Source: Candidatus Poribacteria bacterium
Lineage (GTDB): Bacteria > Poribacteria > WGA-4E > WGA-3G
Reading direction: 5' to 3'
Assembly: GCA_965207855.1 (NCBI GenBank)
Contig: OZ242310.1
Coordinates: forward strand, 3,444,202 to 3,508,201
Length of the DNA stretch: 64,000 nucleotides
In this document: piece after piece, positions 846 through 53,799 of the stretch
Position numbering within the stretch: the first letter of the stretch is position 1
How the letters are laid out: each line of letters begins with the position of its first letter
Made by a program: the position numbers and the translations under genes
Notes under the pieces: generated by a model
The model's database searches: none
Seen by the model: the letters and a program-made list of their open reading frames with translations, nothing else
Told to the model about the DNA's origin: nothing

Positions 846-1114
846 TACTTTCTACCTTCACATTCAATTCAGAAAGTCGTGTGCGGTGAAAGTCGCACGC
901 ACGGTTTGGAGGGGCTGATAACTCGTGAGGGTTATTGGCTACCCTACAATAGAAGTTAGAAGTAAAGCAACTACCTTCAATTTTACAGGATTAACGAATA
1001 AATTTCAAACAGAAAACGAACAACAAACGACTTAGCCTCTGAAACAAGGGTAAGATTAAACTAGCTTGTATAAATAGCGTCCAAAAGTATAAATACGTCC
1101 AAAAGGAGTATCAT

Positions 1115-5033: not shown

Positions 5034-6017
5034 TTAAAGAATCGTCAATTCATCTTCCTCACTGCTCTCCGCCAGAACCGCCACTAATTCGTTCGCAACC
5101 CCCCCAAAGGCTTCCGATTGCGGCGACTCCGGATTCCCAGCAACGATCGGAACCCCGATGTCCCCTGCAGTGCAAACTTCAGCGTCAAGCGGAATTTGCC
5201 CTAAGAACGTGACACCAAATCGCTCACTTGTATTCCTACCGCCATCGGCACTAAAAATCTCCGTCTTTTCATTGCAGTGCGGGCAGAGGAAGTAACTCAT
5301 GTTTTCTATAATCCCCAGAATCGGCACACCGAGACGTTCAAACATAGCGACCCCTCGCCGGACATCCGCAAGCGCAACGTCTTGGGGCGTTGTAACGATA
5401 ACTGCTCCAGTCAACGGGATCGCCTGTGTTAAGGTGAGCGCAACATCTCCTGTCCCAGGGGGGAGGTCGATAATCAGATAGTCGAGTTCACCCCACGCGA
5501 CGTCGCTCAGGAATTGACGGATCGCACTGTGCAGCATCGGCCCTCGCCAGATCATCGCCTGTTCTTCCGGCACCATGAACCCGATCGACATCAGTTTAAT
5601 GTTATGCCGAACCAACGGGATGAGTTTGCGTTCCGGACTCGTCCGTGGACGTTCTTGAATCCCCATCATCGTTGGGATACTCGGACCGTAGGCATCCGCG
5701 TCCATCAAGCCGACTTTCGCACCGGCGTTTGCAAGCGAAATTGCCATATTCGTGGCGACAGTCGATTTCCCGACACCCCCCTTGCCACTCGCAACGGCGA
5801 TTTTATGTTTTATATTTGGTAAAGTAATGTTCTGTTGCGGGGTTTGTTGTTGTGCTGTTTGCTGTTGTGGACGAGGCTGTTGCTCTTGCCGTCCAGGGAT
5901 TTGTGAACCGCTGATGACCTGTAGCTCTGGGTGTTCCTTTGCTGTCGGACCTGATGCGGGTTTCGGACCTGATGCGGGTTTCGGTTTTTTTGTGTCGCCT
6001 TTTTTCAAAAATCTCAT
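5034..6017 (-). CDS. apbC: Mrp/ApbC/NBP35-family Fe-S cluster carrier ATPase (start re-called at MRFLKK; track ORF extends to 6068)
   Basis: Deviant Walker A KIAVASGKGGVGKST, and CPHC near the C-terminus. GAGGAGG sits 6 nt upstream of the ATG at about 6017. The N-terminus carries an unusual low-complexity KPKPASGPKPASGP/Q-rich segment. Confidence 0.8.
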   Translation of the reverse strand: MRFLKKGDTKKPKPASGPKPASGPTAKEHPELQVISGSQIPGRQEQQPRPQQQTAQQQTPQQNITLPNIKHKIAVASGKGGVGKSTVATNMAISLANAGAKVGLMDADAYGPSIPTMMGIQERPRTSPERKLIPLVRHNIKLMSIGFMVPEEQAMIWRGPMLHSAIRQFLSDVAWGELDYLIIDLPPGTGDVALTLTQAIPLTGAVIVTTPQDVALADVRRGVAMFERLGVPILGIIENMSYFLCPHCNEKTEIFSADGGRNTSERFGVTFLGQIPLDAEVCTAGDIGVPIVAGNPESPQSEAFGGVANELVAVLAESSEEDELTIL

Positions 6018-9669: not shown

Positions 9670-9744
9670 GCGGGAGTAGCTCAGTGGTAGAGCTCCACCT
9701 TGCCAAGGTGGAAGTCGCGAGTTCAAATCTCGTCTCCCGCCCCA
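9670..9744 (+). tRNA. tRNA-Gly (anticodon GCC)
   Basis: The acceptor stem GCGGGAG/CTCCCGC pairs. The anticodon loop is TTGCCAA, a GTTCAAAT T-loop is present, and CCA is encoded. Confidence 0.85.
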
Positions 9745-9750
9745 TCTTAA

Positions 9751-9825
9751 GGTGGCGTAGCCAAGTGGTAAGGCCAGAGTCTGCAAAACTCTTATTCGTC
9801 GGTTCGATTCCGACCGCCACCTCCA
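9751..9825 (+). tRNA. tRNA-Cys (anticodon GCA)
   Basis: The acceptor stem GGTGGCG/CGCCACC pairs. The anticodon loop is CTGCAAA, the T-loop is GGTTCGATTCC, and CCA is encoded. Confidence 0.85.
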
Positions 9826-9844
9826 TTATTATCTTTCCAAGAAC

Positions 9845-9918
9845 GGGCGGTTAGCTCAGGTGGCTAGAGCGTTTGCTTGACATGCAAGAGGTCACAGGTT
9901 CAAGTCCTGTACCGCCCA
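9845..9918 (+). tRNA. tRNA-Val (anticodon GAC)
   Basis: The acceptor stem GGGCGGT/ACCGCCC pairs. The anticodon loop is CTTGACATG, as in bacterial tRNA-Val(GAC). The T-loop is GGTTCAAGTCC. Confidence 0.8.
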
Positions 9919-17951: not shown

Positions 17952-17982
17952 CGTTTATTGCTCTCTTTTTTTATTGACAAAA

Positions 17983-18012
17983 AAAACAGATGCCATAAAA
18001 TAGGGTGCATAT
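17983..18012 (+). promoter_or_regulatory. Sigma70-like promoter TTGACA-N16-TAAAAT upstream of the Ldh_2 operon
   Basis: TTGACAAAAAAAACAGATGCCATAAAAT. Confidence 0.45.
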
Positions 18013-18047
18013 TCTTTATTACGATTTTCAACTTTAGCAAATCCAAT

Positions 18048-18082
18048 CGTGAATTGACCAGAAACCTGCCCGTAATGAAATG
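18048..18082 (+). promoter_or_regulatory. Conserved 5'-leader motif TCGTGAATTGACCAGAAACCTGCCCGTAATGAAAT followed by a hairpin
   Basis: A near-identical 35-nt motif occurs at 20426..20460 upstream of the SDR gene (28/35 identical). Confidence 0.5.
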
Positions 18083-18112
18083 GAGGGCAGTCCAGGAGCA
18101 ATAGTTTAAAAT

Positions 18113-19183
18113 ATGGAAAAGACACATCTACTTCATGCCCCACATCTCCACGCAATTTCACGCAACATATTCGTCGCTGCCGGGGTCTCACGACACATCG
18201 CAGAGGATGTTTCTGAAATCCTGCTCAACGCCAATCTCGCTGGACACGATTCCCACGGCGTACTCCGCATTCCCGCCTATTTGCGCGGTATTGATGGCGG
18301 ATCCCTAAAGCCAACAGCCGAGCCCAAACGCCTTGAAGAAACCGCAAATACCCTGAGCGTTGATGGGCAGGGCAGCTTCGGGCACTATACCTCACGCTGG
18401 TCTATAAAGAAAGCCATTGAGAAGGCAAAAACCGCTGCCTCTTGCTCTGTCAGCATCCGCAACACCGGACATATCGGACGTCTCGGCGAATATGCTGAAG
18501 AAGCAGCAAGAGCCGGATGTATCTCGCTTATCACTGTCGGGGGGGGCGGTAGAGGCAGAGGCCCAACTGTGCCTTTTGGTGGCGCGGAAGGTGCTTTTGG
18601 AACAAACCCCATCGCTATCGGTGTACCTACTGGGGATAGCAGTCCATTTATTGTTGATTACGCCACGAGTATGGTCGCCGAAGGAAAAATTCAGGTCGCC
18701 CGAAGCAAAGGTATTGATTTACCTGAGGGGTGTATCCTTGATAAAGACGGGAATCCGAGCGTCAAACCCGCTGACTTCTACGATGGTGGCTCGCTTCTTG
18801 CATTCGGAAAACACAAAGGCTACGCACTCGCCATGTTTACATGCCTCCTTGGTGGATTGGCAGGAACGTTTGATGTGGAACAAGGTTCAATGAACGGCAT
18901 TTTCATGCAAGCCGTTGATGTCAAAGCCTTCACGCCTGTTGATGAATACCAGAAAGGTGTACGAGCCTTCTTAGATGGCATTAAATCCACACCACCCGCC
19001 CCCGGCTTTGACGAAGTATTAGTTCCGGGTGATTTTGAATACCGATCCCGAACCCAACGGTTAGTGGATGGTATTGAAATACCGGATACCATTTACAATC
19101 AACTCCAGGAGTGTGCAGACAAATTCGGCATTTCTATCGGCGAAGAGATAACCGAGGCGGAAGACAAGGCTCGCTATAAGTAG
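18113..19183 (+). CDS. Ldh_2-family (malate/L-lactate/L-sulfolactate dehydrogenase type-2, COG2055) oxidoreductase
   Basis: Signature segment NLAGHDSHGVLRIPAYL. Length is 356 aa. Confidence 0.75.
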   Translation: MEKTHLLHAPHLHAISRNIFVAAGVSRHIAEDVSEILLNANLAGHDSHGVLRIPAYLRGIDGGSLKPTAEPKRLEETANTLSVDGQGSFGHYTSRWSIKKAIEKAKTAASCSVSIRNTGHIGRLGEYAEEAARAGCISLITVGGGGRGRGPTVPFGGAEGAFGTNPIAIGVPTGDSSPFIVDYATSMVAEGKIQVARSKGIDLPEGCILDKDGNPSVKPADFYDGGSLLAFGKHKGYALAMFTCLLGGLAGTFDVEQGSMNGIFMQAVDVKAFTPVDEYQKGVRAFLDGIKSTPPAPGFDEVLVPGDFEYRSRTQRLVDGIEIPDTIYNQLQECADKFGISIGEEITEAEDKARYK

Positions 19184-19204
19184 CTTTGCAGGAGGCAATC
19201 CATC

Positions 19205-20242
19205 ATGAAAAGATTTATGTTTGAAGCCGCGGCACTCCAAACGTTCACAAGAAACCTGTTTGTCGCAGCGGATACCCCGCGGCGTATTGCTGATGATGTT
19301 GCTGAAATTTTGATAAAAGCCAATCTCGCTGGGCACGATTCACACGGTGTGTTGCGTATCCCGTCCTACCTTGATGCGATTGAAAACGGAGGGATCCGTC
19401 CAGCTGCTGAACCAGAAATCATCCGCGAAACCGACAACACACTTCATATTGATAGCAGACGCGGTTTTGGACATTATGCAGCACGTTATGCGATCCGTCG
19501 CGCCATTGAGAAGGCGAAAAGCACACGTACCTGCTTCGCAACGCTTACGCATACCAACCATATCGGCAGAGTCGGTGAATACGCACAAGAAGCCGCTGAG
19601 TCGGGGTGTATCGGAATGATCTCGGTCGGGGGCGGCTCAAAAGGCGGCGGACGTATTCTTCCTTTCGGTGGCGCGGTCGGTGCACTCGGCACAAACCCAA
19701 TCGCTATCGGCGTACCGACAGGTGATGATAGACCCTTCCTCATTGATTTCGCAACCAGTATGATTGCCAACGGCAAAACCTACGTCGCTGACAGCGAAAA
19801 TCGAGATTTGCCTGAAGGTTGTGTTGTTGACAAGCACGGCAATCCCACCGTTAAAACTTCCGAATACCGCGATGGTGGACACCTTCTTGCTTTCGGTAGA
19901 CACAAAGGCTATGCGCTTTCTCTTTTCGTCTGTTTACTCGGTGGATTGGCAGGCACATTTAACGTTGAGGCTGGACAAATGGGCGGTCTCTATATGCAGG
20001 TGATTGATGTCAACGCTTTCATGCCACTTGAAGCGTACCAAAAGGGTGTCCGTGCCTTTTTAGACAGTATCAAATCAGTGCCACCCGCTCCGGGTTTTGA
20101 CGAGGTATTAGTCCCTGGTGATTTTGAGGTCGACACCCGCACACACCGCCTCGCAAACGGCATTGATCTACCCGATACCATCTACCAGCAACTCCGCGAA
20201 TGTGCGGAAGAGTGGGGCGTTCCTATGCCTGAATCCCAGTGA
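19205..20242 (+). CDS. Ldh_2-family oxidoreductase, tandem paralogue of 18113..19183
   Basis: About 60% identical to the upstream gene (NLAGHDSHGVLRIPSYL). The 21-nt spacer puts them in an operon. Confidence 0.75.
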   Translation: MKRFMFEAAALQTFTRNLFVAADTPRRIADDVAEILIKANLAGHDSHGVLRIPSYLDAIENGGIRPAAEPEIIRETDNTLHIDSRRGFGHYAARYAIRRAIEKAKSTRTCFATLTHTNHIGRVGEYAQEAAESGCIGMISVGGGSKGGGRILPFGGAVGALGTNPIAIGVPTGDDRPFLIDFATSMIANGKTYVADSENRDLPEGCVVDKHGNPTVKTSEYRDGGHLLAFGRHKGYALSLFVCLLGGLAGTFNVEAGQMGGLYMQVIDVNAFMPLEAYQKGVRAFLDSIKSVPPAPGFDEVLVPGDFEVDTRTHRLANGIDLPDTIYQQLRECAEEWGVPMPESQ

Positions 20243-20262
20243 TTCGGTTTCCCAGATTAACC

Positions 20263-20291
20263 TTGACATTGCCCCGCTATGGTGTTATACT
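20263..20291 (+). promoter_or_regulatory. Sigma70 promoter TTGACA-N17-TATACT
   Basis: TTGACATTGCCCCGCTATGGTGTTATACT. It would give a ~230-nt leader carrying the conserved motif at 20426..20460. Confidence 0.55.
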
Positions 20292-20425
20292 TAACCTCGT
20301 AAAGTCAATTCTTTTTTTGAAAGGATGTAGGGCCTTGCGGCGGTAGCTAAAATTAGGATGCTTCGGATTTAGCAGAGGTGTGCGATATTAACGAGGGGAA
20401 GTTAGGTACAAATCCTCAATTCCCG

Positions 20426-20460
20426 TCGTGAATTAACCGAAAACCGGCTCGTAATGAAAT
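20426..20460 (+). promoter_or_regulatory. Second copy of the conserved 5'-leader motif TCGTGAATTAACCGAAAACCGGCTCGTAATGAAAT plus hairpin ATGCC..GGCAT
   Basis: See 18048..18082. Confidence 0.5.
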
Positions 20461-20530
20461 TATGCCTTAAACGGCATAATTTGTCTTTGCTTTACATTTG
20501 GAGAGCGGCCCAGAGCCCATAGTTAAAAGA

Positions 20531-21322
20531 ATGAATCTTGGACTCACAGATAAAATAGCAGTCGTAGGCGCGTCAAGCAAAGGACTTGGACGCGCAATCG
20601 CACTCGGTTTGGCACAGGAAGGCGCGAAGGTCACGATCTGTGCAAGAAATAAAGATGAACTGGAGACAACAGCAGACGATATTCGGAGCCAGACGGGTTC
20701 TGAAGTCTTGGCAGTTCCGACGGATGTTAGCCAACCAGAGCAGGTTGAAACCCTCATTAGCACAGCAATTCAGCACTTCGGGGGTATTGATGTTTTAGTC
20801 AACAACGCAGGCGGTCCCAGAGCCGGACGGTTTGACGACCTCGGCGCACAGGATTACCAAGACGCTGTTAATCTAAACCTAATGAGCACGATCAACCTCT
20901 GTCGTGCCGTTGTCCCGACAATGCAGGCACGCGGCGGCGGACGAATTATCAATCTCACTTCTGTTTCTGTCAAGCAACCTGTAGACAATCTCATGTTGTC
21001 GAACATGGCACGCACAGGTGTGATCGGGTTTGCGAAGACGCTCGCAACGGAGTTAGCACCAGATAAAATTCTCGTCAACAATGTCTGTCCGGGTATTATC
21101 TTCACCGATCGCATTCAGCAGCTGGCGACGGTACGTGCAGAGGAAGCCGGTATCACATTTGATGAAGCACTCGAAAGGATGACAGCGGACATCCCACTCG
21201 GTAGAATCGGCGACCCTCATGAATTTGCAGCCCTCGTTGTTTTTCTCGCTTCGGAACGCGCAAGTTATATAACAGGGACAACGATTCAGGTAGACGGCGG
21301 CATGGTAAGATCACTGCTCTAA
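20531..21322 (+). CDS. SDR-family oxidoreductase (3-oxoacyl-ACP-reductase-like); ATG start, track ORF begins at TTG 20498
   Basis: TGxxxGxG-type motif GASSKGLGRA. The catalytic S..YxxxK region is present. Confidence 0.8.
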   Translation: MNLGLTDKIAVVGASSKGLGRAIALGLAQEGAKVTICARNKDELETTADDIRSQTGSEVLAVPTDVSQPEQVETLISTAIQHFGGIDVLVNNAGGPRAGRFDDLGAQDYQDAVNLNLMSTINLCRAVVPTMQARGGGRIINLTSVSVKQPVDNLMLSNMARTGVIGFAKTLATELAPDKILVNNVCPGIIFTDRIQQLATVRAEEAGITFDEALERMTADIPLGRIGDPHEFAALVVFLASERASYITGTTIQVDGGMVRSLL

Positions 21323-22105: not shown

Positions 22106-22133
22106 TAATCTATATTTGGAGGTTAAATCGTTA

Positions 22134-23747
22134 ATGATGCTTAAAAAGGTGGTTTATGCCGCGCTGATCCTCTTATTCGTAGGTACGATCTCTACCGTTG
22201 TGTTTGGACACAGCGACCTCCCCACGCTTTTGGAGGATGTCAATAAAGATAGTGTGGTGAACATCCAAGACCTGGTGCTCGTCGCTACTGCTTTCGGACA
22301 ACCCAGAGACCGCAATGCGGAATACGACCCTGATGTCAATCGCGACGGAATCGTTAATGTACTCGATCTTGTTCGCGTCAGTAACGGTTTTGGACAGACT
22401 GCATCGGATGAAAATTCAGCGTATCACGATATTCAGGAATATGTCTTTGATAAGAGTTGTGCGAACAGTGTTTGTCATGCTGCGCCTGCCAACGCGGGTA
22501 ATTTAAATCTGACCTATGGTCTCTCTTATGAAGATTTGATCGTCGGTGTGCCACAGAATCCTGCTGCGGCTGCCGCTGGCATGAAACTCGTAGATCCCGG
22601 CAATCCAGAGAACAGTTTCTTGTTGACGAAACTGATGGGACCCACAGCACCGGAACAAGGCGCACGGATGCCCTTTGCGGGCGGCGTGCTCCACGATGGA
22701 AAAATAGAAGCAATTCGTACCTGGATCGAAGCTGGCGCACCACAGACGGGTAAAGTGATCGGGATGGGGGACCTCGCAGTCTTACGAGACCCTGAAGAAA
22801 TCTTTGAACCACCTGCACCACCACCACCCGGTGAAGGCTATCAACTTCATTTGCCGCCCTTCAGAATCGAACCCGGCACTGAACGGGAAGTATTTTATGC
22901 AACGCAAATCAAAGATGAAAATGGAGAGCCAATAGCGGGTGACATCTTCATAAATAGATATGAGATTTTCTATCCCGTGGGCAGCCATCACTTTATCTTA
23001 TATCGGATGACCGATGCAGCAATCTCAGACGGAATCCTTGAGATTGGCTTAGTTCCCGGAATCGGTGTTGATCCAACAGATCCTTTCCGAGAGTTAGACC
23101 CAGCCGACCCGCAGGCACTTGGAGACGGAGGGATTCATCGCTTCTTCGTTGCCGGATCACAAAGCGACGATCTTTCGCTTGCATTTCCAGAGGGCGTCGC
23201 CCTCCGACTTGCCGGTGATACGCTCTTTGACATGAATTCTCACTTCATTAATTTATTAGGGACCGAAACCCTAATTGGTGAGGCTTATATCAATATCTAC
23301 ACACTTCCACCTGAAGAAGTCACGCATGAGGTAATTGAGATTTTCGTTTCCAACACAGAGATTAACGTCCCGCCCGGGCTGACCCGTGTTAGCAAAATGA
23401 ATTGGTATATTGAAGATGAAATGGAACTGCAAGGCATAGATCCAGGGGCAACATTGAACGTCATGCTGCTCACATCTCACATGCATAGACACGGCGAATT
23501 GTTTGAAATCTTTCAACAGTCAACAGGGGGCTTGTTGCACCGGAGCGTCGCTTATGATGACCCACCGATAACCTTTTATACCCCACCGCTGGCACTTGAT
23601 GCAACCGATGGGCTCAGCTTTCAGTGTACGCATAGCAATTATGATCGGGATGTACCTCTTGAATTCGGTTTTACATCCGAAGACGAGATGTGCCTTATGG
23701 TCGGCTATTATTATGTGCCAACGAAAAGTGTTGCGGACAGTAATTAA
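22134..23747 (+). CDS. Secreted multi-domain protein: dockerin-like repeats + PSCyt1-like domain (degenerate C-x4-CH) + C-terminal PHM/DBH-like putative copper-monooxygenase domain
   Basis: Signal peptide. Two D-x-N-x-D-G/S-x-V-N-x-x-D-L repeats. The segment DKSCANSVCH...MPF..WIEAGAP fits the PSCyt1 pattern. Motifs SHHFILY, NSHFINL, SHMHRHGE and SEDEMCLMVGYYYVP sit at PHM-like spacing. GGAGG RBS; the track ORF begins at 22116. Confidence 0.5.
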   Translation: MMLKKVVYAALILLFVGTISTVVFGHSDLPTLLEDVNKDSVVNIQDLVLVATAFGQPRDRNAEYDPDVNRDGIVNVLDLVRVSNGFGQTASDENSAYHDIQEYVFDKSCANSVCHAAPANAGNLNLTYGLSYEDLIVGVPQNPAAAAAGMKLVDPGNPENSFLLTKLMGPTAPEQGARMPFAGGVLHDGKIEAIRTWIEAGAPQTGKVIGMGDLAVLRDPEEIFEPPAPPPPGEGYQLHLPPFRIEPGTEREVFYATQIKDENGEPIAGDIFINRYEIFYPVGSHHFILYRMTDAAISDGILEIGLVPGIGVDPTDPFRELDPADPQALGDGGIHRFFVAGSQSDDLSLAFPEGVALRLAGDTLFDMNSHFINLLGTETLIGEAYINIYTLPPEEVTHEVIEIFVSNTEINVPPGLTRVSKMNWYIEDEMELQGIDPGATLNVMLLTSHMHRHGELFEIFQQSTGGLLHRSVAYDDPPITFYTPPLALDATDGLSFQCTHSNYDRDVPLEFGFTSEDEMCLMVGYYYVPTKSVADSN

Positions 23748-23812
23748 ATAAATCATGCGAAGCGCGGAATCAATTGGATTACCAAACAAATTTGGAGGTT
23801 GAATTGTTAATT

Positions 23813-25429
23813 ATGATAAGAAAAACAGTCTATTTCACACTCATCACCTTGCTGATGGGCAGCTTCTCTTTTTTCGCACTCGGACACAGCGATCTCCCGA
23901 CGCTGTTAGAGGATGTCAATAAAGACGGTGTGGTAAACATCCAAGACTTAGTGCTTGTTGCTGCTTCCTTTGGACAACTCAGGGATCGTAATGCGACGCA
24001 GGACCCTGATGTCAATCGCGACGGGATCGTTAATGTGCTTGACCTCGTTCGGGTCAGTAACAGTTTTGGACAAACCGTGCCAAGTGAAAATTCAGCATAT
24101 CACGATATTCAGGAATATGTCTTTGATAAGAGTTGTGCCAACAGTGTCTGTCATGCTGCGCCTGCGAATGCGGGTAGTTTAAATCTTACCTACGGTCTCT
24201 CTTATGAAGATTTGGTTGGACAGGTTCCTCTGAACCCAGCCGCCGCGGCTGCCGGTATGAAGCTGGTTGATCCGGGCAACCCGGAGAACAGTTTCCTTTT
24301 GGCGAAATTGATGGGACCCGCAGCACCGGAACTGGGCGCGCGGATGCCTTTTGGCGGCGGTATACTCCATACTGGCAAAATAGAAGCTGTCCGCACATGG
24401 ATTGAGGCTGGCGCACCGCAGACCGGCAAAATAGCGGGTATCGGAGACCTTGGGGTCCTACGCGATCCTGACGAAGTGTTTGAACCGCCCGCGCCACCCG
24501 CCCTCGGTGAAGGCTATCAACTCCGTCTGCCACCCTTCAAGATTGAACCCGGTACGGAACGCGAAATCTACTACGCAACCCAAATCACTGATGAAAATGG
24601 AAACCCTATAGCGGGCGACATCTTTATTAATAGAGTTGAAATCTTCTATCCAGCGGGTAGCCATCACTTCATCGTGTATCGGTTCACTGAAGAGGGCTTA
24701 GCAAACGGGGTCCCAGAGAGAGGAATTACACCCGGAATCGCAGTTGATCCAGCGACGGATAGATTCCGTGAACTGGACCCAGACGATCCGCAAGTGCTTG
24801 GCAATTTTGGTGTTGATAGACTTTTTGTTGTCGGCACGCAGACGGATGATACGCTTTTTGAATTTCCTGAAGGTGTGGGATTACGGATGCCCGGAGACAC
24901 GGTTTACGACCTCAATTCCCACTACATCAATTTGCTTGGGGACGAAACATTGATTGGCGAAACCTACGTCAATATCTACACGATTCCCGAAGAAGAAGTT
25001 CAGTACGAGGCGGTTGAAATTTTCGTTTCTAACAGATCGATTAACGTACCACCCAAAACAACGCGCGTTTCCAAAATGACGTGGTACGTTGAAGATGAAC
25101 TCGAACGCCGAGGACACAACCCGGCAGCGGAATTGAGCGTCTTCTTACTCACATCTCACATGCACAGACACGGTGAGTTGTTTGAAATCAATCAGAGATC
25201 AACCGGGGATTTATTGCACCGAAGCATCGCTTACGACAATGCTCCGATTACTCTGTTTGAACCGATTCTCCGCTTAGGTCCAGACGATGGACTTAGATTC
25301 GAGTGTACCCACAACAACTACGACACGAATGAACCGCTCATATTCGGACTTACATCTGAAGATGAGATGTGCATTATCTTCGGTTATTATTATATCCCGA
25401 CTGAAAGTGCCGGAGAGATCATTAAATAG
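23813..25429 (+). CDS. Tandem paralogue of 22134..23747 (same domain architecture)
   Basis: About 75% identical across all the same motifs (AGSHHFIVYR, NSHYINLLG, TSHMHRHGELFEI, SEDEMCIIFGYYYIPT). The RBS context is also conserved. Confidence 0.5.
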   Translation: MIRKTVYFTLITLLMGSFSFFALGHSDLPTLLEDVNKDGVVNIQDLVLVAASFGQLRDRNATQDPDVNRDGIVNVLDLVRVSNSFGQTVPSENSAYHDIQEYVFDKSCANSVCHAAPANAGSLNLTYGLSYEDLVGQVPLNPAAAAAGMKLVDPGNPENSFLLAKLMGPAAPELGARMPFGGGILHTGKIEAVRTWIEAGAPQTGKIAGIGDLGVLRDPDEVFEPPAPPALGEGYQLRLPPFKIEPGTEREIYYATQITDENGNPIAGDIFINRVEIFYPAGSHHFIVYRFTEEGLANGVPERGITPGIAVDPATDRFRELDPDDPQVLGNFGVDRLFVVGTQTDDTLFEFPEGVGLRMPGDTVYDLNSHYINLLGDETLIGETYVNIYTIPEEEVQYEAVEIFVSNRSINVPPKTTRVSKMTWYVEDELERRGHNPAAELSVFLLTSHMHRHGELFEINQRSTGDLLHRSIAYDNAPITLFEPILRLGPDDGLRFECTHNNYDTNEPLIFGLTSEDEMCIIFGYYYIPTESAGEIIK

Positions 25430-25488: not shown

Positions 25489-27363
25489 ATGGAAACCACT
25501 CATTCAAGAAAAAATAACTTCATAGATGCCCTCACACATCGGATTTTGGTGTGTGATGGTGCTATCGGAACCGAAATCCGCAAGCAGGTACCAGCACATC
25601 TGCAATGTGTTGATGCCTGTAATATCTCTACTGAATACGCCGAGAAAGTCTCAATGGTTCATCGCGCATACGCTGCTGCCGGTGCCGATGTTATTCAAAC
25701 CAATACCTATCAGGCAAACAGCGAAGCGTTAGCTGTTCACGGCTTGGCTGAGCAGGTTGAAGAAATTAACAGAAGCGGTGTGAGCCTCGCACGTGCTGCT
25801 GTGCCGAAGACTTGCTATGTAGCCGGTTCCGTTGGACCGATCTCTTTCCAAACCTTAGATACCACACTGCCCGCAACGAAGGCAATCAGGCGCATCTTCA
25901 AACAGCAAATGGATGCCCTTGTTGATGAAGGCGTTGATCTTCTCGTCCTTGAGACTTTCGTTTCTCCCAGACAAGCAGAAATCGCCGCGAAGCAAGCCCT
26001 CACTTACGATGTCCCTGTCGTCGTTGAAATCAGTGGCGTTTCAGGCGGCACAGTAGGTGCCGGGGTTGATGTCCGGGTCTTTGCACAAGAGCTCGAACAA
26101 CTCGGCGCACACGCGGTCGGGGTCAATTGCCGCGGTCCACACGACCTTGTCGAGGCGATGGAACTCCTTGCACCTGTCATCAAGGTTCCTATCGCTGTAC
26201 AACCCAACGCTGGCAATCCGAGAGTCGAACAGGGCGAAGTGGCACTCTCTTATACAGTCGAGGCAGAAGTTTTCAGCGATTACGTTGGAAAATTGATTGA
26301 ACTTGGCGCGAACATGATTGGCGGTTGCTGCGGCACGACCCCCGCTTATGTGGCGAAAATCCGTCAGGCTGTTAGAGAACGTGAACCTGTTGAACGGCAA
26401 CAACGGATCTTCGTCCTTCCAAAGATTCGCGCAACCTCGAAAGTCCGGACGGATAATCCTGTGCAACAGGTGTTTGAAACGCGAGAGCAGATCATAAGTG
26501 TTGAAATGCGCGCCAATACATTTCCACAGTTTCGAGCGATGTTGCGTGAGGCGAAAAAACTCGCTGCCATCGGTGTCGATCTGTTTGATGTAACCGACAA
26601 TTCCGGTGCTGCTGTGAATATTGGAGCCGTCGGTACAGCATACCGACTTCAGCAGACAACACAAATTCCGACGCTCATCCATTGGACAACCCGCTCGCGG
26701 AATCTCATTAGTATGCAATCGCATTTACTCGAAGCAGAGGCGTTGGGTATTCGTGGCATTGTTGCGCTCTCTGGCGACCATCCAAAAGTAGGTCCCTATG
26801 AAGCGGCGAGCCTCGTCCCGGATGTCCGAGGTGCCGTTCAATTGATGAAACTCATTGCACGTCTGAATCAAGGTGAACTCGCTGACGGTTCATCTATTGG
26901 CGATCCGTGTGGATTCTATTACGGCGGCGGTTTTACGGTTGCTGAGAACCTTCAACCCCACGTCAAACATCTCACAAATAAGGTGAAGCAAGGCGCAAAA
27001 TTTGCCTATACGCAACCGGTCTGGACTTATGAAGATATCGTTCGGACCCAGCAAGCGACGGAACATCTTGGTATAAAATTGCTTTACGGCATCCTACCGC
27101 TCACCAGTTTCCGCAGTGCCTCCTATCTACGCGACAATTTGGGACTCTATATCCCTCAGTTTATCGTTGACAAATTTCGAGACCTTGAGGATACCGCCGC
27201 ACACGAACTCGGTATCCGGTTGTGTTTGGAGTTAATTCGCGACATCCGTAATCAAAATGAATGTAAAATTGATGGTATCTATCTCATCCCACCTGCTCTC
27301 ATGAATTGGAAAAACAGAGTCAGGATCATCTCAGAGATCGTTAAAACCTACCGTTTTTTTTAA
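25489..27363 (+). CDS. Bifunctional homocysteine S-methyltransferase / 5,10-methylenetetrahydrofolate reductase (YitJ-like fusion)
   Basis: The N-terminal half (ILVCDGAIGTE..GCCGTTP) is a Hcy-binding methyltransferase domain. The C-terminal half is an MTHFR/MetF domain (LSGDHPKVG). Confidence 0.8.
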   Translation: METTHSRKNNFIDALTHRILVCDGAIGTEIRKQVPAHLQCVDACNISTEYAEKVSMVHRAYAAAGADVIQTNTYQANSEALAVHGLAEQVEEINRSGVSLARAAVPKTCYVAGSVGPISFQTLDTTLPATKAIRRIFKQQMDALVDEGVDLLVLETFVSPRQAEIAAKQALTYDVPVVVEISGVSGGTVGAGVDVRVFAQELEQLGAHAVGVNCRGPHDLVEAMELLAPVIKVPIAVQPNAGNPRVEQGEVALSYTVEAEVFSDYVGKLIELGANMIGGCCGTTPAYVAKIRQAVREREPVERQQRIFVLPKIRATSKVRTDNPVQQVFETREQIISVEMRANTFPQFRAMLREAKKLAAIGVDLFDVTDNSGAAVNIGAVGTAYRLQQTTQIPTLIHWTTRSRNLISMQSHLLEAEALGIRGIVALSGDHPKVGPYEAASLVPDVRGAVQLMKLIARLNQGELADGSSIGDPCGFYYGGGFTVAENLQPHVKHLTNKVKQGAKFAYTQPVWTYEDIVRTQQATEHLGIKLLYGILPLTSFRSASYLRDNLGLYIPQFIVDKFRDLEDTAAHELGIRLCLELIRDIRNQNECKIDGIYLIPPALMNWKNRVRIISEIVKTYRFF

Positions 27364-27377
27364 ACTATTGAATCTGA

Positions 27378-27412
27378 GCACCGCTCCACTACGTTCCGCG
27401 GTGGTTTTTGGT
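27378..27412 (+). terminator. Rho-independent terminator (CACCGC...GCGGTG + TTTTTGG)
   Basis: Hairpin followed by a T-run after the stop at 27363. Confidence 0.5.
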
Positions 27413-27509
27413 CAATTCCAACCTACTCCAGGTGCTCAAGGCTTTCTGACTTCACCAGACACTATCGTGAAACGAAGTGGAACGATAACCAGAGTTAATA
27501 ATTAAAAAT

Positions 27510-29438
27510 ATGCAAACTCGTGAAACTTCCATCTCATCGGCACGCGTTACAGCGAGGTCACTGATCTTAGGGATTTTATTCATCCCTGTTAATGTTTATT
27601 GGATGACGCTTGTTGAAGTGAAGTATTACTCCCTTGACGGTTCATGCCTCCCGCTTTTTATCCAACCGGTCTTCATTATGTTCGTCTGTGTTATCGCGAA
27701 CACACTCTTGAAACGTTTCGCGCCGCGGCAGATGCTCCAACAGGGAGAGTTGCTCACTGTCTACATCATGGTGGCGATCTCGTGTACGTTTGCCGGACAC
27801 GACACGATGCAGAATATGTTCGGGAGTATTGGGCATGCGTTCCAATTCGCAACGGACGAGAATGAGTGGCAGACGCTCTTTTTTCGGTATCTACCCGCTT
27901 GGCTTACCATCTCGGATACCCAAAGCCTCCAAGGGTTTTACGAGGGGGAAGCCACCTTCTACACGAAGCATAACTTCTCAATTTGGCTAAAACCCTTGGC
28001 GTTCTGGGGACTCTTTTTCCTGATTATGATGTTCATGATGCTTTGCATCAACACAATCGTCCGAAAGCGATGGGCAGAGCAAGAAAAACTCGCGTATCCG
28101 ATCATACAACTTCCGCTACGACTCTCCGAAGATGGCGGTATCAGCCTCCTCAAGAATCGGATGATGTGGATAGGCTTCAGCATCGCGTTCGCTATCGGGG
28201 TCATTAACGGGGTCAACTATCTTTTTCCGCAGTTTCCAGAGATCCCTTATATCAAGCGGACGGCTGTTTTCCAAAATATTTTCACTGACCGTCCATGGAA
28301 CGTCATTCGTGGGACCCGGATCTCTGTTTATCCTTTCGCAGTGGGTTTGGCGTTTTTCTTACCGTTGGACCTCTCGTTCTCGTGTTGGTTCTTCTTTGTT
28401 GTACGCTTAGCGGAATTCGTCATTGGCGCAGCACTCGGTACCCGCTATTTTCCTGCCCTCAACGAGCAGGCGTATGGTGCTTGGATCGCCCTTTTCCTGC
28501 TTGCCGTTTGGGTCACACGGCGACATCTGGTAGAAGTGATGAAAAAAGTATTTGGGTTTGAATCGCGTCTTGATGATTCCAACGAACCGATGCCGTATCG
28601 TGCCGCCTTTTTGGGAATTCTTGGATCACTTGTTGCCCTTGGGATCTTTTCCTCTATCGCAGGAATGGCGTTGTGGGTCGCCGGTCTTTTCTTTGGTGTC
28701 TATTTTCTGCTATCGTTTGCAATTACTCGTGTTCGGGCGGAACTCGGCACACCGCATGAAATTTACTACGTCAATCCGCACGACATGCTCGCGACAGTCG
28801 GTGGAACGCGGCAGTTTGACACGAGCAGTCTCACCATTATGTCGCTTTTCTATTGGTTCAATCGGGGCTACCGGAATCACCCAATGCCGAATCAGATTGA
28901 GGCGTTCAAACTCGCCGAATCAACGGGGATGGGCAACAGACGTTTGTGGGTGGCGATGTTGATAGCAATTATCGTCGGGATTTTGGTGACTTTTTGGGCG
29001 AATCTGGACATCACCTTCCGGAACGGTGCTGATGCGAAAGCCGGTGGATTCAAAGACTGGGTTGGCAGAGAATCGTTCAGTCGGCTGCAGCGATGGCTGC
29101 ATAACCCAACGGAACCGAACATGGTTGGTATGGGCTTTATGGGTATCGGCGCGCTCTTGACGTTTGTGATGATGTACATGCGGATGCATTTCTTGTGGTG
29201 GCCCTTCCATCCAGCGGGTTACGCGCTTGCCATCAGTTTTGCGATGGATTATTTCTGGTTCGCTTTCTTCGTGGCGTGGTTTTTGAAGTTAATGATTCTT
29301 CGGCACGGTGGCTTGCGGCTCCATCGTCAGGTCGCACCGCTCTTTTTGGGGTTAATATTAGGCGACTACGTCATCGGCAGCACCTGGGCAATCATCGGAC
29401 CGGCATCCGGCTTACGAACCTATAAAATCTTTATTTGA
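27510..29438 (+). CDS. Large polytopic membrane protein, unrecognised family (paralogue 1 of 3 in the window)
   Basis: 642 aa with 12 or more hydrophobic segments. Shares motifs HAFQFAT(D/P)ENEW, YPI(I/V)QLPL, PLDLSFSCWFF, R(V/I)RAE(L/I)G(T/P)P and LGLILGDY with 57331..59256 and 60059..61972. Confidence 0.6.
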   Translation: MQTRETSISSARVTARSLILGILFIPVNVYWMTLVEVKYYSLDGSCLPLFIQPVFIMFVCVIANTLLKRFAPRQMLQQGELLTVYIMVAISCTFAGHDTMQNMFGSIGHAFQFATDENEWQTLFFRYLPAWLTISDTQSLQGFYEGEATFYTKHNFSIWLKPLAFWGLFFLIMMFMMLCINTIVRKRWAEQEKLAYPIIQLPLRLSEDGGISLLKNRMMWIGFSIAFAIGVINGVNYLFPQFPEIPYIKRTAVFQNIFTDRPWNVIRGTRISVYPFAVGLAFFLPLDLSFSCWFFFVVRLAEFVIGAALGTRYFPALNEQAYGAWIALFLLAVWVTRRHLVEVMKKVFGFESRLDDSNEPMPYRAAFLGILGSLVALGIFSSIAGMALWVAGLFFGVYFLLSFAITRVRAELGTPHEIYYVNPHDMLATVGGTRQFDTSSLTIMSLFYWFNRGYRNHPMPNQIEAFKLAESTGMGNRRLWVAMLIAIIVGILVTFWANLDITFRNGADAKAGGFKDWVGRESFSRLQRWLHNPTEPNMVGMGFMGIGALLTFVMMYMRMHFLWWPFHPAGYALAISFAMDYFWFAFFVAWFLKLMILRHGGLRLHRQVAPLFLGLILGDYVIGSTWAIIGPASGLRTYKIFI

Positions 29439-46223: not shown

Positions 46224-46386
46224 ATTTTTAACTATTACCTCCTGGGCTGCCCTCCATTTCATTGCGGGCAGGTTTATGGTTAATTCCAAGCTGGATTGGT
46301 ACAGCGTGCGCGGTTCATGTTCATTAAGAACTTCGGGATAGTGGGATAGAGGCACGCGGGAAGGCACTTTGTATCCTTCTCTCTTT

Positions 46387-53444: not shown

Positions 53445-53799
53445 ATCCACTCCTTGATGATAGTTCTGGGTGTATCCTAACATAGCTGGAGTGAGGGAGC
53501 AACCCCTTATCCCCTGATCCCCTTATCAGCCCGGAATCCTCCCGGGATGTATTTTCATGTATTCTTGAGAGGTCACGAGTACAACTCAGGCCTACACGCA
53601 CGAAGTGCTTTATGGATGTCCACCAAAACTCAATTAAACACATATCCCAAATTTACGTCAAAGTATAAAGATAAAAAACACATCGCGCGGCAAGACACAC
53701 TCGCCGGAAAGGAGCCCCACCATTCGCAGTCTACTCGGCCTCAAGAAGTATATCATTCGATATAGATACGCCATCGTAATCAGTTTCATTCTTGTCATT

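What the first reader, a model, noticed from the sequence alone, without database searches (positions are those of the whole stretch)
17983..20530. Conserved 35-nt 5'-leader element shared by the Ldh_2 operon and the SDR gene, a candidate cis-regulatory RNA or operator
TCGTGAATT(G/A)ACC(A/G)(G/A)AAACC(T/G)GC(C/T)CGTAATGAAAT occurs twice (18048..18082 and 20426..20460). Each copy is in the same orientation inside a leader and downstream of a good sigma70 promoter (TTGACA-N16/17-TAAAAT / TATACT). Each is followed by a hairpin, and the ~230-nt leader of the SDR gene is unusually long. The downstream genes are two Ldh_2-family hydroxyacid dehydrogenases and an SDR, which is plausible for a co-regulated hydroxy/oxo-acid pathway. 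The element does not match a riboswitch class I can name.
Basis: seen in the sequence. Interest (0 to 1): 0.6.

Follow-up and report, generated by a model that had tools for sequence, protein, structure and literature searches.

The report
Poribacterial gene-boundary hairpin repeat family
The two 35-base matches are real, but they are copies of a roughly 75-base hairpin-containing repeat that sits directly against the start (or, flipped, the stop) of many unrelated genes across the phylum Poribacteria. It is therefore not a switch for one hydroxy-acid pathway but an apparently undescribed gene-punctuation element.

Summary
The repeat is real: 18047-18081 and 20426-20460, 30/35 identical, none expected by chance. 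It is only the 5' half of a longer unit that runs to the start codon: a conserved flank (ACCAGAAACC), a 6-bp stem, a near-invariant 13-nt apical module (G-N-A-A-Y-GAA-R-U-G-G-A), the 3' arm, a CCAGGAGG/CCATAGTTAAAAA tail, then ATG. The SDR copy is a long form with an extra hairpin inside the loop.

The window holds five copies. A pattern scan found the unit in at least 32 Poribacteria genome assemblies, and a covariance model found 139 copies in 0.86 Mb. Seventy percent abut a start codon and 23% lie flipped on a stop codon. Seventeen form head-to-head pairs whose two stems always differ. Stems covary strongly.

Downstream genes are unrelated (ATP synthase, Nuo, CysS, RfbA-like, enolases and others). 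Five related Ldh_2 leaders lack the element but keep the promoter. Orthologous copies are 89-97% identical where adjacent four-fold sites are 44-75%.

Verdict: this is a phylum-wide structured interspersed repeat, BIME-like in architecture and like Neisseria REP2 in carrying the translation start region. Forward copies probably act as a modular 5'-UTR/translation-initiation module. Pathway-specific co-regulation is not supported. Nothing matches in Rfam or in the searched literature.

The parts
17974..18001 (+). Sigma70-like promoter of the Ldh_2 operon (TTGACA-16-TAAAAT). It is gene-specific and is not part of the repeat.
   Evidence: The same TTGACAAAAAAAACAG...TAAAAT promoter is conserved in L001, L002, L005 and L007, which lack the repeat.
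18043..18112 (+). Copy 1: a short-form, forward (start-side) unit that ends at the Ldh_2 ATG (18113). The 5' flank including ACCAGAAACC is 18057-18066. Stem arms are 18066-18071 (CTGCCC) and 18085-18090 (GGGCAG). The apical module GTAATGAAATGGA is 18072-18084. The SD-like CCAGGAG is 18092-18098. The A-rich tail is 18101-18112.
   Evidence: Covariance-model hit 18043-18116, 85.2 bits, E 4.7e-14. The structure is supported.
20263..20291 (+). Sigma70-like promoter of the SDR gene (TTGACA-17-TATACT, extended -10). It is gene-specific.
   Evidence: The blocks AGATTAACCTTGACA and GGTGTTATACTTAA are invariant in the window, L004 and L001.
20422..20530 (+). Copy 2: a long-form, forward unit that ends at the SDR ATG (20531). 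Stem arms are 20445-20450 (CGGCTC) and 20503-20508 (GAGCGG), with one G.G mismatch. A 10-bp hairpin is inserted in the loop at 20457-20482 (AAATTATGCC-TTAAAC-GGCATAATTT), followed by a T-rich stretch at 20483-20499.
   Evidence: Covariance-model hit 20422-20534, 53.7 bits. The long-form consensus fold over 28 copies is. The inserted hairpin was flagged as terminator-like.
46224..46294 (-). Copy 3: a short-form, forward unit that ends at the ATG (46223-46221) of a D-2-hydroxyacid dehydrogenase gene (45273-46223, minus strand).
   Evidence: Covariance-model hit 46220-46294, 86.5 bits. Pfam 2-Hacid_dh_C. No promoter-like site lies upstream.
27353..27426 (-). Copy 4: a reverse (stop-side) unit with stem CACCGC/GCGGTG. 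Its tail overlaps the stop codon of the S-methyltransferase/MTHFR gene (25489-27363, plus strand). It is the left half of a head-to-head pair.
   Evidence: Covariance-model hit, 68.2 bits. Context. Pfam of the gene.
27440..27509 (+). Copy 5: a forward unit with a fully compensated stem TATCGT/ACGATA. It ends at the ATG (27510) of a DUF6785 gene and is the right half of the head-to-head pair.
   Evidence: Covariance-model hit 27440-27513, 66.9 bits. Pfam.

Best explanation
Shown. The two matches are two of at least five copies in this window of a Poribacteria-wide interspersed repeat. The repeat is about 75 nt long, or about 113-125 nt in a long form that carries extra hairpins inserted in the loop. 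Each unit has these parts in order: a 5' flank ending in ACCAGAAACC; a 6-bp stem whose sequence varies but stays complementary; a near-invariant apical module G-N-A-A-Y-GAA-R-U-G-G-A (a 3x3 G.A/N.G/A.G internal loop, two Watson-Crick pairs and a GAA triloop); the 3' arm; and a tail (n)CCAGGAGG-CCATAGTTAAAAA. The tail always faces the neighbouring gene. In about 70% of copies it abuts a start codon, with the ATG 29-35 nt after the GGAG of the 3' arm. In about 23% the flipped unit lies on the stop codon of the preceding gene. Head-to-head pairs with two different stem types fill intergenic spacers, including spacers inside nuo and atp gene clusters.

Inferred. Forward copies such as those in front of Ldh_2 and the SDR gene work in the mRNA as a modular translation-initiation leader. 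They replace the gene's own Shine-Dalgarno region, supply an SD-like motif and an unstructured A-rich spacer (and possibly the ATG), and place a hairpin about 23 nt upstream of the ATG, which I infer is just outside the ribosome footprint. There it could insulate or stabilise the transcript, or be bound by a trans-acting factor that recognises the invariant apical module. Reverse copies are mostly a second stem subtype that lacks the SD. They present a hairpin followed by GUUU(U/C)(U/C)GGU at the 3' end of the upstream gene, which would suit a weak terminator or 3' stabiliser. The family's architecture (hairpin repeats, heterotypic inverted pairs) suggests it arose as REP/BIME-like DNA and is now kept by selection. 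It does not signal co-regulation of the Ldh_2 and SDR genes.
For: Family identity. The listed loci come from at least 32 Poribacteria assemblies, and the 13 listed hits in other phyla lack the 3' arm. The covariance model found 139 hits in 864 kb and 5 in the window.

Boundaries. Conservation starts about 10-17 nt before ACC and stops at the start codon.

Structure. RNAalifold predicted the same structure independently. 98.9% of cells are paired, 6 of 8 pairs show double changes, and 0 of 500 shuffles reach the observed values. About 20 different but complementary stem sequences occur. Long-form P1 and P2 are supported.

Gene-boundary locking. Of 138 unique copies, 97 abut a start codon, 32 abut a stop codon and 9 do neither. 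The ATG offset mode is 32 nt; 67 of 70 fall within 29-35 nt, and 68 of 70 start codons are ATG.

SD retention depends on orientation. An SD-like motif is present in 71 of 98 forward copies and 7 of 32 reverse copies. Stem subtype A is 83 forward: 16 reverse, while subtype B is 2: 11, plus 2: 4 among unique metagenome copies.

Selection. Orthologous copies are 89-97% identical where adjacent four-fold sites are 44-75% identical. Paralogous copies within a genome have a median identity of only 68-80% and a maximum of about 0.9.

Replacement of native initiation regions. Relatives without the element have an ordinary AAGGA SD 8-10 nt from the ATG. In L004 a pair replaces the native 60-nt SDR-GT2 spacer from the stop codon to a new ATG.

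Unrelated downstream genes.
Against: There are no expression data, so transcription, processing and any effect on translation are all inferred.

The SD-like motif sits about 13 nt from the ATG. I regard that as long for a canonical SD. About a quarter of forward copies lack it.

Reverse copies keep the apical module as well as forward copies do (0.96 vs 0.98). G.U and A.C mismatches are equally frequent (12 vs 11 in forward copies, 8 vs 5 in reverse copies). Both results fit DNA-level or orientation-independent recognition better than a purely sense-RNA function.

Single-sequence folding energies are not unusual (z from -1.3 to +0.1).

Sampling was seeded with an A-type pattern, so the proportions are biased. 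Copy number per genome is extrapolated from a single 64-kb window.
Confidence: 0.55

Rival explanations
1. REP/BIME- or MITE-like DNA repeat with no dedicated role in gene expression. Hairpin-forming single-stranded DNA is recognised by a RAYT/IS200-type or other transposase, or by a DNA-binding or structural protein. Gene-boundary placement reflects where insertions are tolerated, followed by loss of redundant spacer DNA.
For: Copies occur in both orientations with equally conserved apical modules. There are heterotypic head-to-head pairs, none tail-to-tail, and 0 of 17 pairs share a stem type, as with the Y/Z REPs in BIMEs (PMC2817692). Stems carry compensatory changes, as in REPs. There is no G.U over A.C bias. 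Presence and absence vary between close relatives. Copy number is high.
Against: Orthologous copies are conserved in position and sequence across species whose synonymous sites are near saturation. Within a genome no copies are near-identical. That is the opposite of the species-specific, highly dynamic behaviour described for REPs/BIMEs. Spacing to the ATG is tight, and the SD is retained only in forward copies. No RAYT-like ORF was seen in about 0.9 Mb of held sequence, although this was a weak test.
Confidence: 0.27
2. Operator of a global post-transcriptional regulator. A CsrA-like or phylum-specific RNA-binding protein, or a small RNA, binds the invariant apical module (AUGGA/GUGGA) together with the SD-proximal CAGGA, and controls translation of a very large regulon.
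For: The 13-nt apical module is near-invariant whatever the stem sequence. Two GGA motifs lie about 13 nt apart, one in or near the hairpin loop and one at the SD, which from my own knowledge is the geometry typical of CsrA targets. Purifying selection is evident.
Against: Conservation extends over about 70 nt, well beyond a protein-binding hairpin. Reverse copies keep the module although their transcript would carry its complement. Presence of CsrA in Poribacteria was not established; the one paper listed by the Poribacteria + CsrA search concerns Borrelia flagellar regulation, not Poribacteria.
Confidence: 0.12
3. One reading: a gene-specific riboswitch, attenuator or operator that co-regulates the Ldh_2 operon and the SDR gene as one hydroxy/oxo-acid pathway.
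For: Three forward copies in this window precede oxidoreductases (Ldh_2, SDR, 2-Hacid_dh). The long form contains a terminator-like hairpin followed by a T-rich run.
Against: The unit precedes 50 unrelated gene groups. It is absent from orthologous Ldh_2 leaders in 5 genomes and from the SDR leader of the closest relative. It also occurs flipped at stop codons. The hairpin is too simple to form a ligand pocket, which is my inference.
Confidence: 0.02
4. Leader peptide or upstream ORF: xTG-GAG-GGC-... (about 9 codons) ending at the TAA in the tail, translationally coupled to the main gene.
For: ATG, GTG or TTG always occupies the 3' side of the triloop, and 60 of 119 copies give a 9-codon ORF ending in the tail.
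Against: The other half have ORFs of 3-27 codons or no stop within +60 nt. The peptides are not conserved beyond what the nucleotide conservation already implies. The A/G at the first codon position covaries with its pairing partner U/C (UA 31, CG 33), so base pairing explains it. No SD precedes the putative start. Reverse copies have the same property.
Confidence: 0.03

Closest known systems
Neisseria REP2 repeats and the similar Borrelia plasmid IR sequences (Delihas 2011, PMC3184786)
   Same: An intergenic repeat located immediately upstream of diverse ORFs. It forms their 5' UTR, contains internal stem-loops, and carries the ribosome binding site and the ATG initiation codon. This is what the forward copies here look like.
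   Different: REP2 is 120-150 bp long, has about 26 copies per genome, is restricted to one genus and contains its own promoter. The poribacterial unit is about 75 nt long and has no conserved promoter inside or at a fixed distance upstream. It occurs at about 5 copies per 64 kb, spans at least 32 species-level assemblies, also occurs flipped at stop codons, and forms heterotypic head-to-head pairs. Sequence similarity to REP2 was not tested.
REP elements and BIMEs of proteobacteria (RAYT-associated; Nunvar 2010, PMC2817692)
   Same: Abundant extragenic hairpin repeats whose palindrome is preserved by complementary mutations. They are arranged as oppositely oriented pairs of two different REP types, like Y and Z2 in E. 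coli. Here 17 head-to-head pairs were found and none shares a stem type.
   Different: REPs are described as species-specific and dynamic, and as obligately associated with a RAYT gene flanked by them. From my own knowledge they are also short, roughly 20-40 nt. The poribacterial unit is about 75 nt with long conserved unpaired flanks, is locked to start and stop codons, carries an SD-like motif, and is conserved at orthologous sites across species. No RAYT was found, but that test was weak.
Correia elements and other bacterial MITEs
   Same: Small non-coding interspersed repeats that are co-transcribed with neighbouring genes and can supply expression signals (PMC3184786). A head-to-head pair resembles a roughly 170-230-bp MITE with long inverted ends.
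   Different: A single unit has no terminal inverted repeats. No target-site duplication is evident at the one polymorphic site examined. The two arms of a pair are no more alike than random copies (0.59 vs 0.64). No near-identical recent copies were found.
Riboswitches and gene-specific cis-regulatory leaders in Rfam
   Same: A structured element in the 5' UTR with covariation, located just upstream of the ribosome binding site.
   Different: No Rfam family reaches its threshold. The best overlapping match is GP20-a at 18.6 bits against a gathering score of 47.2. The downstream genes are not functionally coherent. Copy number is far above what I know of any riboswitch class, and copies also occur in the antisense orientation.

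Membership tests
Any Rfam 15 family | Covariance-model score at or above the family's gathering threshold | tested here: not met
   The whole window at gathering thresholds gave only tRNAs and a group II intron domain. E-value mode over three element regions gave nothing relevant. The best overlapping hit was GP20-a at 18.6 bits vs 47.2, E 0.33.
Gene-specific cis-regulatory RNA (riboswitch or attenuator) | Association with a functionally coherent set of downstream genes | tested here: not met
   Fifty unrelated downstream gene groups. Pfam families include NTP_transferase, MR_MLE, Aminotran_3, AAA_3, PhyH, OSCP, ATP-synt, Proton_antipo_M, tRNA-synt_1e, PhoU, TMP-TENI and Peptidase_M29.
Gene-specific cis-regulatory RNA (riboswitch or attenuator) | Conservation in the orthologous leaders of the regulated gene | tested here: not met
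   The Ldh_2 leaders of L001, L002, L003, L005 and L007 lack it while the promoter is conserved. The SDR leader of L004 lacks the hairpin part. It is present at Ldh_2 in L004, L028, L035, L041, L095 and L105, so the distribution is patchy.
Gene-specific cis-regulatory RNA (riboswitch or attenuator) | Covarying secondary structure | tested here: met
REP/BIME (RAYT-associated) | Abundant extragenic imperfect palindrome whose pairing is kept by complementary mutations | tested here: met
   139 copies in 864 kb of seeded loci, 5 in the 64-kb window, about 20 complementary stem variants.
REP/BIME (RAYT-associated) | Oppositely oriented pairs of distinct REP types | tested here: met
   17 head-to-head pairs, 0 tail-to-tail, 0 of 17 with the same stem against 23% expected. 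Stems are less alike than in shuffled partners in 4999 of 5000 shuffles.
REP/BIME (RAYT-associated) | A cognate RAYT gene flanked by two inverted copies | tested here: inconclusive
   tblastn with an E. coli YafM sequence recalled from memory against about 0.9 Mb of held sequence gave only spurious hits. The L026 hit lies in a PhyH-like ORF and the L099 hit in a frame with stops. No whole genome was available.
REP/BIME (RAYT-associated) | Species-specific and highly dynamic distribution | tested here: not met
   Present in at least 32 species-level Poribacteria assemblies. Orthologous copies are 89-97% identical across species. Some presence/absence polymorphism does exist.
Neisseria REP2-type repeats that carry the RBS and ATG | Located immediately upstream of ORFs and supplying the RBS and initiation codon | tested here: met
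   97 of 138 copies abut a start codon, 67 of 70 ATGs lie 29-35 nt after the 3' arm, and 71 of 98 forward copies have an SD-like motif. In L004 the pair supplies a new ATG.
Neisseria REP2-type repeats that carry the RBS and ATG | Own promoter inside the repeat | tested here: not met
   There is no information content upstream of about -17 and no conserved -35/-10 inside the unit. The window's promoters lie 40-130 nt upstream of the unit and are gene-specific. None lies upstream of copy 3.
Neisseria REP2-type repeats that carry the RBS and ATG | Sequence homology to REP2 | not tested
MITE | Terminal inverted repeats, a target-site duplication, and recent near-identical copies | tested here: not met
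   A single unit has no TIR. The arms of a pair are 0.59 identical against 0.64 for random copies. No duplication is visible at the L004/window polymorphic site. The maximum paralogue identity is about 0.9.
CsrA/RsmA-type target leader | GGA motifs in a hairpin loop and overlapping the SD, and CsrA present in the organism | tested here: inconclusive
   The sequence shows (A/G)UGGA at the 3' side of the apical module and CAGGAGG in the tail. Presence of CsrA in Poribacteria was not established.

The most novel reading that the evidence does not exclude
Poribacteria may use a selection-maintained gene-punctuation system. A start-side hairpin module (A type, with SD) and a stop-side module (B type, without SD) share one invariant 13-nt apical motif. 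That motif would be read by a dedicated trans-acting factor, or the motifs of a pair would pair loop-to-loop. The system would set translation initiation, 3'-end formation and cistron coupling for an estimated several percent of all genes, including genes inside the nuo and atp clusters. This would be a genome-wide post-transcriptional layer with no described counterpart in other bacterial phyla.
Probability: 0.25. Interest if true: 0.75.

Novelty: new variant of a known kind. Interest (0 to 1): 0.55.

Why it matters
For annotation. Anyone scanning Poribacteria genomes for riboswitches or operators will keep meeting this element. It should be masked or modelled as a repeat family and not read as pathway co-regulation. 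The covariance model built here finds copies with E-values down to 1e-13.

For biology. The family combines features not usually seen together. It has REP/BIME-like heterotypic hairpin pairs. It is placed precisely against start and stop codons. It carries the translation-initiation region, as Neisseria REP2 does. It shows deep, position-specific conservation that indicates selection, not recent transposition. If the forward copies really are interchangeable translation-initiation modules, they are a natural analogue of engineered standardised 5' UTRs or insulators. They would also offer a way into gene expression in an uncultivated, sponge-associated phylum.

Tried and rejected
- Rfam at gathering and permissive thresholds found nothing. 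The sub-threshold GP20-a resemblance (18.6 bits vs 47.2) rests partly on a 5' hairpin that other copies lack, so I treat it as chance.
- Upstream-ORF reading. Only half the copies give the 9-codon frame, and the variable first base is explained by pairing.
- Promoter inside the unit. No conserved signal was found.
- Thermodynamic stability as evidence for structure. The z-scores are about 0, so the case rests on covariation.
- Long-range tail-to-tail helix or translational coupling in head-to-head pairs. MFE folds often draw it, but the tails of true partners are no more alike than those of shuffled partners (P = 0.17). There is no specific support.
- G.U versus A.C asymmetry, to tell RNA from DNA and sense from antisense. 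No asymmetry was found.
- RAYT search by tblastn with a recalled YafM sequence gave only spurious hits.
- Literature searches for Poribacteria-1, and for Poribacteria combined with repeat, hairpin, REP, MITE or CsrA, found nothing relevant.
- The weak sixth window hit at 53786-53867 (-), E 0.78, lacks the apical module and was rejected.
- The look-up of encoding contigs for the window's own Ldh_2 protein: not on record.
Full report
**Observation.** The degenerate 35-mer occurs exactly twice in the 64-kb window, at 18047-18081 and 20426-20460 on the + strand. None is expected in dinucleotide shuffles. The downstream genes are two Ldh_2-family proteins (18113-19183 and 19205-20242) and an SDR (ATG at 20531, 263 aa as in relatives).

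**The repeat is longer than 35 nt.** Aligning the two leaders shows that a roughly 40-nt block in the SDR leader (20461-20499) interrupts the similarity. If that block is skipped, the similarity continues to the start codon: TGGAGGGCAGTCCAGGAGCAATAGTTTAAAATATG versus TGGAGAGCGGCCCAGAGCCCATAGTTAAAAGAATG. The 35-mer holds the 5' arm of a hairpin (CTGCCC) whose 3' arm (GGGCAG) lies just beyond it. A fuzzy search then found a third copy on the minus strand (46256-46290), directly upstream of another ATG. It also found two copies in the closest relative (L004, a TARA scaffold whose Ldh_2 is 96% identical): one upstream of Ldh_2 and one upstream of the GT2 gene, but none upstream of the SDR gene.

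**Orthologous leaders.** Protein homologues identify the organism as Candidatus Poribacteria. Five related genomes (L001, L002, L003, L005 and L007; their Ldh_2 proteins are 80-91% identical to the window's) keep the Ldh_2 promoter TTGACAAAAAAAACAG...TAAAAT. Their leaders are short, about 60 nt, with an ordinary AAGGA Shine-Dalgarno 8-10 nt from the ATG and no element. The SDR promoter (AGATTAACCTTGACA...GGTGTTATACTTAA) is invariant in the window, L004 and L001. The hairpin part of the element is present only in the window. The gene-specific signals are therefore the promoters. The 35-mer is not conserved with the genes.

**Family.** Among the 80 listed loci, at least 32 different Poribacteria assemblies are represented, several with 7-10 loci each. 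The 13 listed hits in other phyla lack the 3' arm. By my own estimate about 17 chance matches are expected for a pattern of this information content.

Information content places the 5' boundary about 10-17 nt before ACC and the 3' boundary at the start codon. I built a covariance model from 66 short-form copies. It finds five copies in the window: 18043-18116 (+), 20422-20534 (+, long form), 46220-46294 (-), 27353-27426 (-) and 27440-27513 (+). It finds 139 copies in 864 kb of Poribacteria loci plus the window, many of which the seed pattern did not catch. Five per 64 kb would extrapolate to a few hundred per 5-Mb genome. This is an inference from a single window.

**Structure.** The proposed structure is a 6-bp stem, a 3x3 internal loop (G-N-A opposite G-G-A), two Watson-Crick pairs and a GAA triloop.
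- RNAalifold returned the same structure independently.
- 98.9% of cells are paired, 6 of 8 pairs have changes on both sides, no shuffle reaches the observed values, and slid controls collapse.
- Across all covariance-model hits the stem occurs as CTGCCC/GGGCAG (46 copies), CTGCTC/GAGCAG (34), CATCGT/ACGATG (12), CACCGC/GCGGTG (3) and about 15 further variants, most of them complementary.
- The window's own pair at 27353-27513 has CACCGC/GCGGTG and TATCGT/ACGATA.
- The closing pair of the triloop switches between U:A (31) and C:G (33).
- The unpaired apical nucleotides are nearly invariant whatever the stem.
- Single-sequence folding energies are unremarkable (z from -1.3 to +0.1), so the evidence is comparative.
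- The long form (28 copies aligned) keeps P1 with covariation. At the triloop it adds a 10-bp hairpin AAATTATGCC-loop-GGCATAATTT with a few compensatory variants, followed by a T-rich stretch. Some copies have a third small hairpin.

**Placement.** Of 138 unique copies, 97 are followed directly by the start codon of an ORF of at least 80 codons. Another 32 lie in the opposite orientation with their tail on the stop codon of a convergent ORF, and 9 do neither. Among seed-matched copies, 67 of 70 start codons lie 29-35 nt after the GGAG of the 3' arm (mode 32), and 68 of 70 are ATG. In reverse copies the stop codon usually lies 8-9 nt inside the model's 3' end. That is, the conserved TTAAAAA read backwards supplies or coincides with the TAA. 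In the window this applies to the S-methyltransferase/MTHFR gene ending at 27363.

Seventeen head-to-head pairs (5' ends facing, 10-57 nt apart) were found. There were two tandem arrangements and no tail-to-tail pairs. Such pairs fill the spacers between co-directional genes, including NuoJ- and NuoL-like genes in L083 and ATP synthase genes in L069, L081 and L118. They also occur between convergent genes (L129).

**Two subtypes.** No pair has the same stem in both halves, against 23% expected. Stems of true partners are less alike than those of shuffled partners in 4999 of 5000 shuffles. Usually one half is CTGCYC-type (A) and the other CATCGT/CACCGC-type (B). A-type copies are mostly start-side (83 forward, 16 reverse). 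B-type copies are mostly stop-side (2 forward, 11 reverse). A separate metagenome scan seeded with a B-type pattern gave 2 forward, 4 reverse and 1 neither among unique copies. An SD-like motif (GGAG, GAGG or AGGA) is present in the tail of 71 of 98 forward copies and 7 of 32 reverse copies. The genome scan was seeded with an A-type pattern, so absolute proportions are biased.

**Downstream genes.** Forward copies precede 50 distinct gene groups. Pfam assigns representatives to NTP_transferase, two MR_MLE enolase-superfamily groups, Aminotran_3, MoxR AAA_3, PhyH, ATP synthase delta and gamma, a 4Fe-4S NuoI-like protein, Proton_antipo_M (NuoL-like), CysS, PhoU, a phosphoribosyltransferase, an ABC ATPase, ThiE, peptidase M29, a SPOR protein, DUF6785 and a D-2-hydroxyacid dehydrogenase. 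This is not a pathway regulon.

**Age and selection.** For nine orthologous gene groups, the element is 89-97% identical between species whose adjacent coding sequence is only 44-75% identical at four-fold degenerate sites. Locus-specific signatures, such as GCGGAGG in the enolase group and AAAAACCATG in the NTP-transferase group, are shared by orthologues. This argues for vertical descent and against homogenisation. Paralogous copies within a genome have a median identity of only 68-80% and a maximum of about 0.9. The family is therefore old and under purifying selection, with no sign of a recent burst.

Presence and absence still vary. In L004 a roughly 190-nt head-to-head pair replaces the native 60-nt SDR-GT2 spacer that the window and L001 share. 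The replacement runs exactly from the stop codon to a new ATG one codon downstream of the ancestral start. At the Ldh_2 leader the element stands where relatives have their native SD.

**RNA or DNA.** G.U and A.C mismatches are equally frequent in forward (12 vs 11) and reverse (8 vs 5) copies. Copies not selected by the seed keep the apical consensus equally well in both orientations (0.98 vs 0.96, with the caveat that covariance-model detection favours it). These two results do not favour a purely sense-RNA function. They fit DNA-level or orientation-independent recognition. By contrast, the fixed distance to the ATG, the orientation-specific retention of the SD and the replacement of native initiation regions point to a role in the mRNA for forward copies.

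**Most likely mechanism.**
- Shown: the window's Ldh_2 and SDR leaders each end in a copy of this family.
- Inferred (moderate confidence): forward copies act as a modular translation-initiation leader. They provide an SD-like motif and an A-rich unstructured spacer, with a hairpin about 23 nt upstream of the ATG. I infer that this is just outside the 30S footprint, where the hairpin could insulate the ribosome binding site from upstream sequence, slow 5'-to-3' decay, or bind a factor that reads the invariant apical module.
- Inferred: reverse copies put the complementary hairpin followed by GUUU(U/C)(U/C)GGU at the 3' end of the upstream gene, which fits a weak terminator or 3' stabiliser.
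- The idea that head-to-head pairs couple translation through a tail-to-tail helix appears in MFE folds but gets no specific support.
- The family's architecture suggests an origin as REP/BIME-like DNA that was later kept by selection.

**Comparison with known systems.** The closest functional analogue in the literature I could read is the Neisseria REP2 repeat, together with the similar Borrelia IR sequences. REP2 is an intergenic repeat immediately upstream of ORFs, with internal stem-loops, that carries a promoter, an RBS and an ATG (PMC3184786). The closest architectural analogue is the REP/BIME system. Its features are abundant hairpin repeats with complementary mutations, pairs of two REP types in opposite orientation, and obligate association with RAYT genes (PMC2817692).

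The poribacterial family differs from REP2 in having no internal promoter, far higher abundance, phylum-wide spread, reverse copies at stop codons and heterotypic pairs. It differs from REP/BIME in unit length, long conserved unpaired flanks, codon-precise placement, the SD-bearing tail, deep positional conservation and the absence so far of a RAYT, which was only weakly tested. It is not in Rfam 15. Six full-text searches returned nothing on such an element in Poribacteria.

**Verdict.** The interpretation as a pathway-specific regulatory element is not supported, although the element is a structured part of the 5' leader. What is there is an apparently undescribed, phylum-wide, selection-maintained hairpin repeat that marks gene starts and ends. 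I rate it a new variant of a known kind (interspersed intergenic repeats) and of moderate interest. The mechanism remains inferred.

Noticed in passing
window 20316-20336; L004 and L001 SDR leaders (alignment A6): A block TTTTGAAAGGAT(A/G)TAGGG is conserved in the SDR leader of the window, L004 and L001, upstream of and independent of the repeat. It may be the real gene-specific leader signal, or a remnant of a variant repeat form.
   Followed up: no
window 17974-18001; L001, L002, L005, L007 Ldh_2 leaders: The Ldh_2 promoter, with an unusual A-run spacer (TTGACAAAAAAAACAG...TAAAAT), is conserved almost base for base across Poribacteria species whose leaders otherwise differ.
   Followed up: partly
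window 872-947 (+): Rfam group II catalytic intron domain (RF00029, 55.6 bits), indicating a group II intron near the start of the window.
   Followed up: no
window 9670-9918 (+): A cluster of three tRNA genes found by Rfam.
   Followed up: no
window 22116-23747 and 23774-25429 (+): Two tandem paralogous proteins that combine a dockerin type I domain with a copper type II ascorbate-dependent monooxygenase C-terminal domain. L001 has only one such gene at the syntenic position.
   Followed up: no
L071, L073, L104, L105, L107, L113, L118 (e.g. L073 around 5297-5392): A third variant of the repeat replaces the CAG of the 3' arm with GTTTTTGCTTGGGCGTTTCTTTAG. That insert can pair with the AGAAAC of the 5' flank. 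L104 has several tandem GCAAAAAC-rich units after it.
   Followed up: partly
window 46235-46303 (-): A sub-threshold resemblance of copy 3 to the Rfam GP20-a cis-regulatory motif (18.6 bits vs gathering 47.2, E 0.33): hairpin, UUAA, a GCCC/GGGC stem, then AGGAGG. I judge it to be chance, but the layouts are alike.
   Followed up: partly
window 18113-20242 versus L001, L002: The Ldh_2 gene is a tandem pair in the window, L003, L004, L005, L007 and L008, but single in L001 and L002. The neighbouring genes also differ (SDR/GT2 in some, a WD40 beta-propeller protein in others).
   Followed up: no
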